NCBI GenBank assembly: GCA_039630575.1
Contig: JBCNUW010000003.1
Coordinates: forward strand, 97,185 to 144,394
Reading direction: 5' to 3'
DNA: 47,210 nucleotides
Origin: Candidatus Hydrothermales bacterium
Lineage (GTDB): Bacteria; Hydrothermota; Hydrothermia; Hydrothermales; JAJRUZ01
Positions 25,101-31,100 of this stretch are shown in pieces. Positions within the stretch are counted from its first letter, which is position 1; each line of letters starts with the position of its first letter. Position numbers: made by a program.

Positions 25101-28100
25101 TTGTTTAACTCCATTTAAAACATATCCTCCATTTTTTCTTATAGCAGTTGTTTTGATACTTAAAGCATCACTTCCAGCCTCTGGCTCAGTCAAGCAAAAA
25201 GCAGCTATCTTTCCCTCTGCAATTTTAGGTAGTACTTTTCTTTTTAGGTTTTCGTTACCGAATAGTATTACTGGAAAAGAACCAAGAGCTGTTCCTGCTA
25301 AAGCAAGAGAGATACCTGCACAACCCCATGAAAGTTCTTCTATCGCAAGACATAAAGCAAATACTCCCATCCCTAATCCTCCGTATTCTTGAGGTATGTA
25401 TATTCCAAATAGATCCGTATCTACCATTACTTTAACTATCTCATAGGGAAATTCCGCATTTTTGTCATACTTTTCTCTTACTGGAATAATTTTTTCAATT
25501 GCTATTTTTCTTGCAGTTTGTTTTATCATTAATTCCTCTTCAGTTAATTTGTAAAGCATACCCTTCAAATTTTTCATACTTTGGGAATCGAACCGTTATT
25601 TATTTTCCTACACAAAAATCCGAAAAGATTTTATTAAGGATCTCATTATCTATATCTTTTCCAATAACTATGTTTAAAATACCAAGACAATTTCTTAAGT
25701 GGAGTCCAGCTAATTCATCCATATCTTCACTAAGTAATCTCTTTGCTTCCAAAAGTTCTGATGTCACTTCTTTTAACTTAGACTCTTCAAATAGAGTAAG
25801 AGAGATCTCTGTGGATCCAAATTGATTTTCTGCTAAAATTTCCAGCTCTTTTTTTAATTTCTCTATGCCTTTTTCTTTTAAAGCACTTATCTCAAAAATC
25901 TTTTCAAAATTATTTTTGATAACCTCTTTATCCCACTTAATTCCCTTATCTATTTTGTTAATTACAAGAATCAAGTTTTTTTTACTGTTTAATTTCTTAA
26001 TTTTTTTTATTTCTTTTTCATCAGGCTTTCTTTGGCTGTCAAGCATCCATATAATTATGTCTGATTCTCTTATAATTTTTTTTGCTCTTTTAATTCCTTC
26101 TTTTTCTATTTTTGATGATGTTCTTAATCTAATACCAGCTGTATCGTATATAATTGAATTTATTCCTTTAACTGAAAAATTCTCTGATATATAATCTCTT
26201 GTTGTCCCAGGTTCTTCTGTGACTATAGATCTTTCTTTTCCCAATAGCTTATTAAATAAGGTAGACTTTCCAACATTAGGAGCCCCACAAATAGAAATTT
26301 TTAAACCATCAAAAATTCTTCTTGAATCTTCGGAATTTTTTAAATAATTACTTATTTTACTTTTAACCTCTTCAATCTCTTTAATAAGCTTTTCTTTAGA
26401 AAAAGGTGGTAAATCTTCTTCAGGATAGTTTAGGTTAACCTCAATTTCTGCTAAGATTTCCTTTATGTTTTCAAATAATTCTTCAAATTTTTTTCTTAAA
26501 TTTCCCTCCAACCTTTTTAATGAAATCTCTAATGCTTTTAAATTTTCAGCCTTTGCAATTTGATTTATTGCTTGGGCAGATATCAAATCAATTTTTCCGT
26601 TTAAGACTGCTCTCATCGTAAATTCACCTGGTTCTGCATATCTTGCTCCTAAATTTAAAAGGGTTTTTATTATAAGTTTAGGTATAAAAGTTCCACCATG
26701 AGTGAATATTTCAATCATATCTTCACCGGTATAACTTTTCGGTTTTTTATAGTATACCCATTGTACTTTATCTATAATTTTTTTTGTTTCATTATCAAAT
26801 AATTTTCCAAGATACATTTTTCGGTGTTTGTAGGGTGGAGGAGGTTCAGCAATTTTTGAAAAAATATAAAGGGTTTTTTCACCAGAAATTCTTATAATGT
26901 TAAGAGCTGATCCCTTCGAAATTAAAGTAGCAGGTGCACAGATGGTATCCTCTAATCTTTGCAAATTATATTGAAGGAGCGATAATAATATTTTTTCTTT
27001 TACCTTTTCCTGCTGTATAAATTTTTATTCCTTTTTCCCTTTTTAATGCTTTTCTTACTAATCTCTCTTCTTCCTCAGTAAGCACATCAAGAGTTATTTC
27101 TCTTTTTGATTCTCTCACAAGTTTAGCTACGGCTTTTGCTTTGTGAATTATAAAAGCTTGTTTTTTCTTTTTATAATTTGATATATCTAATCTTACTTTT
27201 AGATCCTTAAATTTTTTTCTAAAAGCTTGATATAAAATATGTTCAAGGGCTTTAAGCGTTTCACCTTTTTTTCCTATTAATAAATTATCTGATTTTCTTG
27301 TTGAGAGGTTAACATGTATTCTTGGTGGATGAAAGGCAAAATTTATTTTACCCCTATCCCTCATTATTTCTAAAATTCCATTTAAAAAATTTTCTATAAA
27401 TTCAAATTCCTTGAACTCAAGATAAACTCTTACTTTTGCATTATTTTGATTATCGTTTAAAATTTCCACTTTAACGTCTTCCCTTTTTGCACCTGTTTCT
27501 AAAAGTGCCTTTTCTATTGCCTTTTCAACCGTTTCAGCTTTTGTTTCAATGTATTTCATCTTTGAATCCTTCTTTTTATTAAAAGACTTTCAAAAATTCC
27601 AAGTATATTATAAAGCAACCAATAGTATACAAGTCCAGCAGGTAAGTTTAAAAATATTATTGTAATAAAAATAGACATAAAAATTCCAATTCTTCTTGTT
27701 TGTTCATCCTGAGATGGTTGAAGGAACTGCTGCAATAGTGAGGTCAAACCCATGAGAATTGGAAGAACATAAAAGGGATCTCTTGAAGATAAATCCTTTA
27801 TCCATAAAAATAATTCTTTTCCTCTAAACATTATCTCATTTGTTAAGACCTGGTAAAGTGCCCAAAATACAGGGAGCTGTAATAATAAAGGAAAACATCC
27901 AGAAAAGGGATTCACACCCTTTTCTTTATAAAGTTTCAAAACTTCTTCATTTAATTTTTTAGGATCATCTTTATAAATTTTCCTCAAAGCTTCTAACCTT
28001 GGTTTTAAATCCTCCATCTTTTTCATTGCTCTCATCGACTTAATAGTTAATGGCATAAAAATAATTTTCATTAAAAGTGTAAAAACAAAAATTACAATAC

Positions 28101-31100
28101 TGGAAAGTTTAATTGTACCATAAAACCATTTAAAGGAATACAAAATAAATAAAGTAAAAGGTTTTATAATCCAAAAACCAAGTGGATATAACTCGTAAAG
28201 TAAATATCCTTCTTTTTTTAATATAAAATAATCCTTAGGACCTATAAAGGTATAAAATGAATCAACAGTTTCAGTTATAAATTTAAAGAATTTCCCCTCC
28301 CTATAACCTTCAGCTTTAACAATCTTTTTAAAATACTCCGGCTTTATTATAACTTGTATAAAGTACTTTGTTTCACTTCCCACCCAGAGAGTATTCTCTC
28401 CACCAAAATCTATATCAGAAAAATTTTTTAAATTATGTTTTTTAATACTACCTCTTTTATATTCAATTAAGTTATAATTTTTTTCATCAATTGGATCAAT
28501 AGTTGGTAAAAAGGAAAATAAAAAGAAATTAACATTTTTAAATTTAACTTTCAATTTGTAACCATCTAAAAGTAAAAATTCCTTTGAAATCAAACCATCT
28601 TTTGATTTAAATACTACGCTTTTCTCATCAAATTTATTCAATTCCAAAAGAGTATCTAAGGGTGTGATAAAATTTGGAACATATATTTTAAGGTTTTCTT
28701 CATTTTTAAAATCCCGGAATTTTTTAAGTTCAATTTCCTTTATAATTCCACCCTTTTTCAAAAGAAAAATCCTCAGGTATTCATTTTCAATTAAAATTTT
28801 TTCATCTTCTGGAATATTTAAAGATTTTGGCTCAACTTTAATCTTTTTATTCTTTTCTTCTCTCTCAACTTCCTTAGGTAAAAACTTTAAAAGAAGTATA
28901 TTGTAAACAATAAAAAATAAAATAAGGGTTAAAATCAACGCTAAGTTTCTTCTCATTTTTTAAAAAGTTTTATGTAATCTTCATACGGATAGTTTATACC
29001 ACCTCTTGAAAAGGGGTTACATCTAAAAATCCTAAAAGCTGAAAGTATAAGACCCTTTAAAACTCCATAATCCCTTATTGACATTTCAGCATAATAGCTA
29101 CAGGTTGGATAAAATCTACAGGAAGGGGGGAAGAAATTAGAAAAAATTCTTATAACTTTTATCAAAATAATCAAAAAATTTTTCATTTCTCCCAAAGTTC
29201 CACCAGTTCTTTTTCAATATCATTAATGTGTGTATTTAGTATTTTACTATTTCCTATCAGAACAACATCATAGCCTTTAAACAAAAGCTTATTTCTTCTA
29301 AAAATTTCTCTTAAGATTCTTTTTATTCTATTTCTATCATGTGCCTTTAATTTTTTTCTTTTAGAAGAGAAAGCAACCTTTCCCTGACCCTTTTTGTAAG
29401 CAACCAGTATCATTTTTCCCTTTTTAAATTCACCAGTTTCAAAAATATCTCTTATTTCATCTTTTTTAAGTCTTTGCGGAAGTTTATAATCTATACCGTT
29501 AATTTCCACCTTCCCTTCTGCCTCCTTCTTTTTAAAACCTTTCTACCGCCTTTTGTTTTCATTCTCGCTCTAAACCCATGTCTTCTCTTTCTTTTAATTT
29601 TACTTGGTTGATATGTTCTCTTCATATTTATTAATTCAAAAATGGGATTTGAACCCCCCTAAGTTAAAATATCTTTTAGGGAATATTAACTATTTTATTA
29701 TCGACAGGTTCAACTCCACCTATATTATCTCCGTTAGAATCAAGTTTCAAACCGTCTAAATCTTTTACATTCTTGTTTATCCAAAGCCAGACTGGATTAC
29801 TTTTATTTGAAATAAGGGTAAGTTCTATGTATGTTCTTTTTTCTCCATGATGTTGTATCTTTTTCATATTAAATGGAACAGCATCTTGTAGATAATTTCT
29901 GAACACTTTAACTGTGTTATAGTTTATTGTAGATGTGTCCATAAGTTCGTCAAACCAGAAAACGATTAAATTTTCTGATCTTGAACTATTGAGATAAGAA
30001 GGATAGTCAGTTCTGGTTAAACTTTGGGTAACTGTTGCAAAGAAGATTTGTACTCTATCTATTTCATTCTTTTCTGAAATACCATTGTTATTACCATCAA
30101 GTGAATTTCCTGCTATATCCTTTAAATTTGTATTTATAATAAGTTTATATACTTTACTATAATTTAAAGAAAAGCCTGAAAAAATAATATCTGTTCTATT
30201 TAGTGGAGAATCTATTGTAACTCTTGGATTTCCGATATTTATTTTTAACCCTGATTCATACTCATAAAGTTCAAAAGCTCCATTAACCGAATTCCTATCA
30301 ATATCATTTACATAAAATCTAACATGTATACTGTCATTTATTCCAATTAAACCTCCAAGGCGAAGGGGATTAGGAGATATTAAATTAGCAGGAATTCTGA
30401 AGCTTGGTGGACGGTAATCTGGATCAGGTACAAGGTTTCCTCTTCTTGTCCAAAGGGTATTGTGGTAGTCATCGAGTGAACCCTCTGCATACCCATTTCT
30501 ATTTCCATCAAGAGGGTTTCCTGAAAGATCCTTTGCTGTACTTTTAATTATAACTTCATACTTTGTAGAGTCAGTAAAACCAAAATTTTGTGAAAGTATA
30601 TAGACTGCTCTGTTTGAAGTTTTCTCATAATTCCATGTTCCGTTTGGAACCTCTGTACTTCTTCCTCCTACTACTTTCAGCTCAATAGAGGCGAGAAGTG
30701 ATTTTTCGTCCATGGGCTCTGAAAAGTATATAAAAATTATATCTTGAACATTAGGGTTTAGAGTATCGAAATCCTCTAACACTCTATCGCCGTCTAATGT
30801 AACAACAGATGTAACTGTTGGTAATCTGTTCTCTTTAATTACTTCTTCTCCTAATATACCTGGTTCAATAGGTAAGGATTTTCTTTTACAGGATAAGAAA
30901 ACTAAAGCTATTGACATATTTATTAATACTAACTTTCTCATATTTTCCTCCTTTTAAAATTTAAAGACCACTGAAACTCTCCAATTTGATAAATTTATTA
31001 AGTTTGAAAATCCCATTAAATCCATTGAAAAATTCTCACCAATTTTATAGGAGAGACCGTAATTAAAATCTACGCCTGAGGATTTACCTTTTGATAGATT

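What a model noticed while it worked through the whole genome (the two positions that open the first line are those of the whole stretch)
27556..29186. No signal recognition particle: Ffh, FtsY and 4.5S RNA lost across class Hydrothermia
This free-living diderm has SecA, SecYEG, SecDF-YajC, YidC (this place) and trigger factor and about 210 polytopic membrane proteins, but no ffh, ftsY or SRP RNA. The loss is shared by every Hydrothermia genome searched, while other WOR-3 classes keep SRP.
Evidence so far: Ffh M-domain PF02978: 0 of 64 class genomes, 14 of 14 controls ring. SRP GTPase PF00448 (Ffh/FtsY): 0 of 27 genomes >=95% complete. SRP RNA RF00169: 0 of 64, but 4 of 5 genomes of other WOR-3 classes. 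Ffh in 66 of 85 non-Hydrothermia WOR-3 genomes. tblastn with six WOR-3 Ffh proteins finds nothing here at E<0.05; no SRP-like GC-rich intergenic RNA. TM count call 211.
(Added by a program. Inside this text positions count along the whole contig: contig position 97,185 is position 1 of the stretch shown here. "Call 12" and the like, gene names such as g00115 and contig names such as C1 are that model's own, and its searches are not shown. The text may have been shortened before it was handed on; [...] marks where a part breaks off. The agent that wrote the report below was given it as the finding of a first reader that could run no searches.)

Follow-up and report, generated by a model that had tools for sequence, protein, structure and literature searches.

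The report
Bacterial class without signal recognition particle
A whole class of free-living, mostly hot-spring bacteria, and a second class in the same phylum, lack the signal recognition particle that nearly all cells use to steer membrane proteins to the membrane; such losses were known in a few smaller groups, and how these cells cope is still unproven.

Summary
The absence is real. The window holds an ordinary rnpA-yidD-yidC-jag-mnmE operon. No Ffh or FtsY was found in 64 of 64 class genomes (best score 30 bits; in the own genome a P-loop ATPase) and no SRP RNA in 18 of 18, while SecY was found in 47 of 47 genomes at least 90% complete. In this genome the neighbours of all three genes (rpe/ddl, smc, dnaX) lie inside contigs with the SRP gene gone.

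Precedents exist (Leptospira, Dehalococcoides, SAR86), and a 2025 supplementary table already holds the zeros without comment.

No class-wide replacement was found. YidC has no long basic tail, the SecY pore ring is intact, the E. coli suppressor alleles are absent, and the membrane proteome is not reduced. Most likely ribosomes dock directly on SecYEG/YidC with SecA's help, in thin, slow cells (inferred). Two lineage-limited leads: a Get3-like ATPase (this order only) and polybasic SecA tails (some other families). New member of a known kind.

The parts
27556..28956 (-). yidC, membrane insertase, 466 aa; ends a few residues after its last membrane segment, no long basic tail
   Evidence: PF02096 E 1e-53; only YidC match in the genome; tail comparison
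28953..29195 (-). yidD, membrane protein insertion efficiency factor (80 aa from GTG; the finding's end 29186 is the in-frame ATG)
   Evidence: PF01809 E 9e-22; ORF list
29183..29509 (-). rnpA, RNase P protein, head of the operon
   Evidence: PF00825
26966..27559 (-). jag/khpB (EloR), RNA-binding protein downstream of yidC; also present there in SRP-positive relatives
   Evidence: PF14804 and PF13083; neighbours of yidC in relatives
25600..26964 (-). mnmE-like GTPase, end of the operon (named from gene order and sequence; not scanned)
   Evidence: ORF list; recalled operon order

Best explanation
Shown: ffh, ftsY and the SRP RNA gene were deleted in the ancestor of class Hydrothermia and, probably separately, in the ancestor of a second WOR-3 class; SecYEG, SecA, SecDF-YajC, YidC and trigger factor were kept, and the membrane proteome was not cut back. 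Inferred: inner-membrane proteins are still inserted co-translationally, but without a dedicated targeting particle. Translating ribosomes reach the membrane by diffusion and dock directly on the cytoplasmic loops of SecY and on YidC, while ribosome-bound SecA (with trigger factor and DnaK) shields and hands over emerging membrane segments. Thin cells and slow growth leave enough time. Sub-lineages may have added local helpers (a Get3-like ATPase in this genome's order, a polybasic SecA tail in several other families).
For: Loss; control SecY in 47 of 47 class genomes at least 90% complete; junctions rpe-tRNA-gltA, smc-mgtE and upstream of dnaX are closed inside contigs, and a separately assembled contig bridges the rpe junction with no difference. 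Docking parts kept: SecY R255 and R357 equivalents in 17 of 17 class proteins; SecA in 30 of 30 genomes; uL23, uL29, uL24 normal; 23S helices 24, 50, 53, 59 present in 4 of 4 class genomes read. ORFs with 4 or more membrane segments: 10.6% here against 10.2% and 9.4% in 400-kb samples of two SRP-positive relatives. Literature: SecA targets RodZ co-translationally at uL23 (PMC8082313 passages); E. coli survives ffh deletion when translation is slowed (PMC7844537); the class isolate sy37 is a 0.3-um-wide rod with a 10-h doubling time (PMC12285271; placed in the class by PMC12542636); the same geometric argument was made for Leptospira.
Against: The route is inferred by elimination; nothing shows it working. 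No shared change in SecA was found between the two SRP-less classes. The E. coli suppressor alleles are absent (uS3 W22 kept in 13 of 13 class proteins, IF3 P100 kept in 2 of 2, IF2 454 is Leu), and PMC7844537 reports that slow growth alone did not rescue SRP loss. In E. coli SecA and the ribosome use overlapping sites on SecY. Cell width and growth rate come from one isolate, not from this genome. My search for a new factor covered only gene neighbourhoods and about a quarter of one second class genome.
Confidence: 0.55

Rival explanations
1. A Get3/TRC40-like ATPase with a C-terminal alpha-crystallin domain (contig C67:68166-69308, 380 aa) carries membrane segments to YidC or SecY in place of SRP.
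For: PF02374 E 9e-87 plus PF17886; closest solved relatives are archaeal Get3/TRC40 by sequence and fold (model pLDDT 60); intact ATPase motifs, no Cys, no ars genes beside it; present in 11 of 11 genomes of families f1 and f2. Plant GET3B binds the YidC homologues ALB3/ALB4 and interacts genetically with SRP54 (PMC12040988 passages).
Against: Not class-wide: any ArsA-family match in 26 of 64 class genomes, none in five families, none in 22 of the second class. The family is common in other phyla (PMC6593721), and 3 of 4 such genomes checked also have Ffh. GET3B binds the ALB C-terminal tail, which this YidC lacks.
Confidence: 0.1
2. An unrecognised, lineage-specific factor tethers ribosomes to the membrane or to the translocon, as Mba1 and Oxa1 tails do in mitochondria.
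For: An essential three-part system vanished from two classes with no loss of substrates; about half of the sy37 genes are annotated hypothetical; SecY carries a class-specific S405R change in 17 of 17.
Against: No unknown gene sits beside secY, yidC, secA, secDF, secE, secG or tig across the class; 68 shared candidates from a 400-kb sample were mostly known enzymes and transporters, 15 were scanned and 4 of these had no Pfam family. S405R is missing from the second SRP-less class (0 of 9).
Confidence: 0.13
3. Membrane-protein mRNAs, not nascent chains, are targeted: they bind SecYEG or YidC (perhaps with KhpA/KhpB) before translation starts.
For: mRNA binding to SecY loops and YidC allowed SRP-independent insertion of YohP in E. 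coli (PMC10066597 passages); jag/khpB follows yidC.
Against: Shown for one small protein only; jag follows yidC in SRP-positive relatives too and does not clearly follow it in the second SRP-less class. I ran no test of mRNA composition.
Confidence: 0.13
4. YidC binds ribosomes through a long basic C-terminal tail, as S. mutans YidC2 and mitochondrial Oxa1 do.
For: This is the known route around SRP (PMC10066597 and PMC8321541 passages); 1 of 6 YidC proteins of the second class has a 40-residue basic tail.
Against: All 7 class YidC proteins read end within about ten residues of the last membrane segment, no longer than in SRP-positive relatives; single copy.
Confidence: 0.03
5. The absence is an artefact of incomplete assemblies, or the SRP genes have diverged beyond detection.
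For: All genomes searched are drafts; this one is 94.7% complete in 95 contigs; I could not read the closed sy37 genome.
Against: 0 of 64 and 0 of 22 against 163 of 165 elsewhere in the phylum; genomes of 3 and 4 contigs rated 99-100% complete are negative; three unlinked loci are closed; the more distant paralogue FlhF is detected at 138-162 bits; Ffh is found in 136 of 151 genomes of an unrelated class.
Confidence: 0.03

Closest known systems
Leptospira (all species), Dehalococcoides and SAR86 lacking Ffh, FtsY and SRP RNA (PMC4758666, section 19, passage seen)
   Same: All three components missing, Sec system kept; Leptospira is a thin diderm with free-living species; replacement unknown there too.
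   Different: Here the loss spans two classes (12 and 8 families searched) with SRP-positive sister groups; in the class around a Dehalococcoidia genome Ffh is kept in 136 of 151. No extra low-complexity gene beside the Sec genes was seen here.
Streptococcus mutans YidC2 and mitochondrial Oxa1 bypass of SRP
   Same: Membrane insertion without SRP, with a YidC-family insertase kept.
   Different: One YidC only, without the long basic ribosome-binding tail.
E. coli ffh-deletion suppressors IF2 M454R, IF3 P100S, uS3 W22R (PMC7844537)
   Same: Shows that SecYEG, SecA and YidC suffice when targeting has more time.
   Different: None of the three alleles is present; the natural loss is fixed and old.
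Bacterial Get3 homologues with an alpha-crystallin domain; plant GET3B and Get3d
   Same: Same domain order; nearest structures are archaeal TRC40/Get3 and Nostoc Get3d.
   Different: Function untested; confined to one order here; widespread in other phyla.

Membership tests
Canonical bacterial SRP pathway | Ffh (N, G and M domains) | tested here: not met
Canonical bacterial SRP pathway | FtsY receptor | tested here: not met
   smc junction closed
Canonical bacterial SRP pathway | 4.5S/SRP RNA | tested here: not met
Naturally SRP-less bacteria (Leptospira type) | All three SRP genes absent across the lineage | tested here: met
   0 of 64 (protein), 0 of 18 (RNA)
Naturally SRP-less bacteria (Leptospira type) | SecYEG, SecA and YidC retained | tested here: met
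   SecY 47 of 47; SecA 11 of 11 class relatives plus own; YidC 12 of 13
Naturally SRP-less bacteria (Leptospira type) | Narrow cell body | not testable with these tools
   only the isolate sy37 is described: 0.3 um wide
YidC2/Oxa1-type ribosome-binding insertase | Long, basic C-terminal tail | tested here: not met
   0 of 7 class proteins
prl-type relaxed SecY | Polar change in pore ring or plug (sites recalled: I82, I86, I191, I278, S282, L407, I408) | tested here: not met
   I191, I278, L407, I408 intact in 17 of 17; I187 varies in 6 of 17 and in 2 SRP-positive proteins
Get3/TRC40 targeting ATPase (contig C67 gene) | Intact ATPase motifs, helix 7-9 insert, no metal-binding Cys | tested here: met
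Get3/TRC40 targeting ATPase (contig C67 gene) | Captures membrane segments and delivers them to an insertase | not testable with these tools
Get3-like ATPase as the class-wide SRP substitute | Present in all SRP-less genomes | tested here: not met
   11 of 64 and 0 of 22

The most novel reading that the evidence does not exclude
After losing SRP, sub-lineages recruited different substitutes: this genome's order uses a Get3-like ATPase to carry membrane segments to YidC/SecY (a bacterial GET-like route), while other families, and one family of the second SRP-less class, replaced SecA's zinc-binding tip with a polybasic tail that tethers SecA to the ribosome as a standing targeting factor.
Probability: 0.12. 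Interest if true: 0.85.

Novelty: new member of a known kind. Interest (0 to 1): 0.55.

Why it matters
SRP is taught as universal, and how naturally SRP-less bacteria insert their membrane proteins is open. This case is deeper than the precedents I could check (two classes), comes with SRP-positive sister groups for comparison, probably happened twice in one phylum, and includes a cultured thermophile (sy37) suited to ribosome profiling and ribosome-translocon structures. It also means that ffh and ftsY fail as marker genes for these classes.

Tried and rejected
(1) prl-like SecY: a first alignment suggested a polar pore-ring residue; correct numbering put it at 195, with I191 intact. Searches for the recalled allele name found nothing. 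(2) Long YidC tail: absent. (3) E. coli suppressor alleles: absent. (4) Altered hydrophobicity of first membrane segments: no difference in 9 and 17 orthologue pairs with two SRP-positive genomes (p 0.16 and 0.74; small samples); SecY TM1 alone is somewhat more hydrophobic in the class (1.79 against 1.53). (5) SRP RNA remnant: best nhmmer hit E 5.5 lies inside clpX; a 20-nt match at E 0.34 in G062 is below the cut-off. (6) 23S exit-site helices: all kept, helix 59 slightly longer in 4 class genomes, not decisive; no 23S match in the own assembly. (7) Get3-like ATPase as class-wide substitute: rejected. (8) Complex prediction of the Get3-like dimer with YidC was not available, so there is no verdict. 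(9) The site-heterogeneous tree did not finish. (12) PMC7203096 passages gave nothing on SRP loss in bacteria; the sy37 supplement had no hit for the SRP terms. (13) No membrane-proteome sample of the second class was obtained.
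Full report
What is at the coordinates. The window is G000:C23:97185-144394 of a 1.89-Mb, 95-contig genome rated 94.7% complete. Positions 27556-29186 cover yidC (466 aa) and yidD in the usual rnpA-yidD-yidC-jag-mnmE operon (mnmE named from gene order). The finding is a claim about genes that are missing elsewhere. SecA, SecY, SecE, SecG, SecD, SecF, YajC and trigger factor are present, and 212 of 1706 ORFs have three or more hydrophobic segments at a KD threshold of 1.6, 183 at 1.9.

The absence in this genome. PF02978 and RF00169 give no match at E<=10, PF02881 none at E<=0.1. PF00448 gives one match over the cut-off, 26 bits, which is a 273-aa AAA_22 ATPase. Profiles built from 14 Ffh, 23 FtsY and 23 SRP RNA sequences of WOR-3 relatives find only P-loop noise or nothing. 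Synteny agrees. In SRP-positive relatives ftsY follows smc in 16 of 23 loci and ffh follows rpe or ddl in at least 9 of 14 (output partly cut), and the SRP RNA lies directly before dnaX in 21 of 24 loci. Here smc is followed after 20 bases by a convergent mgtE-like gene, ddl-rpe by a tRNA-Arg and a citrate synthase-like gene, and dnaX overlaps its upstream gene; all three junctions lie inside contigs. A separately assembled contig of a hot-spring run bridges the rpe junction without a difference (one study, possibly the source).

The class and the phylum. No class genome, 0 of 64, has a PF00448 match at E<=1e-15; 17 pass Pfam's low cut-off with at most 30.3 bits, against 230-260 bits for the listed true members. 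SRP RNA: 0 of 18 class genomes, 24 of 25 SRP-positive relatives. As a control, SecY is found in 47 of 47 class genomes at least 90% complete. The genome of the record titled Candidatus Hydrothermus pacificus has no Ffh M domain. Of the other 165 genomes searched, 163 have Ffh or FtsY; the two without are G080 (90% complete, also no RNA) and G157 (75%).

One loss or two. Both SRP-less classes are single clades. On ribosomal proteins plus SecY (39 rows) Hydrothermia was sister to an SRP-positive class at SH-aLRT 99, but a joint clade was not rejected (p-AU 0.18; that matrix held a wrong SecY row for G023). With SecA added and SecY corrected (31 rows, 3767 columns) support was 100 and the joint clade was rejected (p-AU 4.7e-7). 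The model was LG+G4 with E. coli as the only outgroup; the mixture model did not finish, and a few residues in uL2 and uS3 are shared by the two SRP-less classes. Two losses are likely, not settled.

What is in print. PMC4758666 (passages) reports no Ffh, FtsY or SRP RNA in any Leptospira and names Dehalococcoides and SAR86 as further cases. In the class around a Dehalococcoidia genome Ffh is kept in 136 of 151, so that loss is narrower. PMC12542636 (passages, one section, supplement rows) does not mention SRP in its text, but Table S4 has an unbroken run of zeros for K03106 and K03110 over subgroup 3 (47 columns by my count; Hydrothermia in Table S2) and over 11 columns that match class UBA3073 if the columns follow Table S2. 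PMC12285271 (passage, first 10,000 characters, supplement search) describes isolate sy37 as 0.3-um-wide diderm rods with a 10-h doubling time and a circular genome, and does not mention SRP. Searches found no statement of the loss in WOR-3; the library lacks most subscription journals.

What could replace it. YidC is single-copy and all 7 class proteins read end within about ten residues of the last membrane segment, no longer than in SRP-positive relatives, so the S. mutans YidC2/Oxa1 route (passages of PMC10066597 and PMC8321541) does not apply. SecY keeps its pore ring (I191, I278, I408) and its R255 and R357 equivalents; a class signature S405R (17 of 17) is absent from the 9 second-class and all SRP-positive proteins aligned (one stray SecY from G039 set aside as foreign). 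The suppressor alleles that let E. coli live without ffh (PMC7844537, sections 6 and 11) are absent. The load is not lighter: 10.6% of ORFs have four or more membrane segments, against 10.2% and 9.4% in 400-kb samples of two SRP-positive genomes and 9.0% in a second class member, with no shift in first-segment hydrophobicity in 9 and 17 orthologue pairs. Ribosomal exit-site proteins and 23S helices are ordinary. No unknown gene accompanies the translocation genes across the class; this search was partial.

Two leads. First, a Get3/TRC40-like ATPase with an alpha-crystallin domain (C67:68166-69308) has intact motifs and no Cys, and is nearest to archaeal Get3 by sequence and fold. Plant GET3B binds ALB3/ALB4 and interacts genetically with SRP54 (PMC12040988 passages). 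But it occurs in only 11 of 64 class genomes (all of families f1 and f2) and 0 of 22 of the second class, and the family is common in other phyla. Second, SecA (30 of 30 genomes) keeps its zinc-binding tip in this genome, in 3 of 12 class, 6 of 7 second-class and 11 of 12 SRP-positive proteins; a tail with nine or more Lys/Arg in the last 20 residues replaces it in 5 of 12, 1 of 7 and 0 of 12. That is about two independent events, too few to weigh. The nine class proteins without the tip form the clade that lacks the Get3-like gene.

How it most likely works. Shown: the three genes are gone and the insertion machinery and its substrates remain. Inferred: ribosomes making membrane proteins dock directly on SecY and YidC, and ribosome-bound SecA, which targets RodZ co-translationally in E. 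coli (PMC8082313 passages), shields and hands over membrane segments; thin cells and slow growth give time. Against it: no positive sign of adaptation was found, and slow growth alone did not rescue E. coli. I put this at 0.55, an unknown dedicated factor and mRNA targeting at 0.13 each, the Get3-like carrier at 0.10, a YidC tail and an artefact at 0.03 each.

Verdict. Its value lies in the SRP-positive sister groups, the probable repeat within one phylum and a cultured member. Interest 0.55.

Noticed in passing
G000:C67:68166-69529 (locus L230:1246-2609, minus): Get3-like ATPase with alpha-crystallin domain, preceded in this genus by a 70-aa helical protein with no Pfam family.
   Followed up: partly
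G080 (family f25): Lacks Ffh, FtsY and SRP RNA although its sister G068 has all three; a possible third loss, or gaps in a 410-contig draft.
   Followed up: no
SecA loci L260-L266, L270, L271, L276, L283: Zinc-binding tip of SecA lost in nine class families and one family of the second class, often replaced by a Lys/Arg-rich tail.
   Followed up: partly
SecY, G000:C14:31618-32949 and loci L200-L209: Class-specific Arg at E. coli position 405, with Thr/Ser at 195 and mostly Asp two residues later; perhaps a TM5-TM10 salt bridge.
   Followed up: partly
G000:C12, C5, C14, C28; loci L097, L098, L102, L111, L113, L114: The S10-spc-alpha ribosomal operon is split into at least four pieces here and broken at different points in several relatives.
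   Followed up: no
uS10 in loci L097-L136: Position 86 is Ala in nearly all SRP-positive proteins, Lys in 11 of 11 class proteins and variable in the second class.
   Followed up: no
L179 (G039:C77): A second SecY unlike all other class proteins in a genome rated 7% contaminated; probably a foreign contig.
   Followed up: no
L042-L047: Three families of the second SRP-less class keep FlhF in a flagellar operon, an SRP-family GTPase left without Ffh or FtsY.
   Followed up: partly
window 29676-32666 (minus): A 421-aa lipoprotein-like ORF with a Big_5 domain and a 570-aa ORF with no Pfam family, ending like an outer-membrane protein, lie upstream of rnpA.
   Followed up: no
L435-L437: 23S rRNA of three class genomes has an extra insertion in the helix 58 region and a longer helix 59 than E. 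coli.
   Followed up: no
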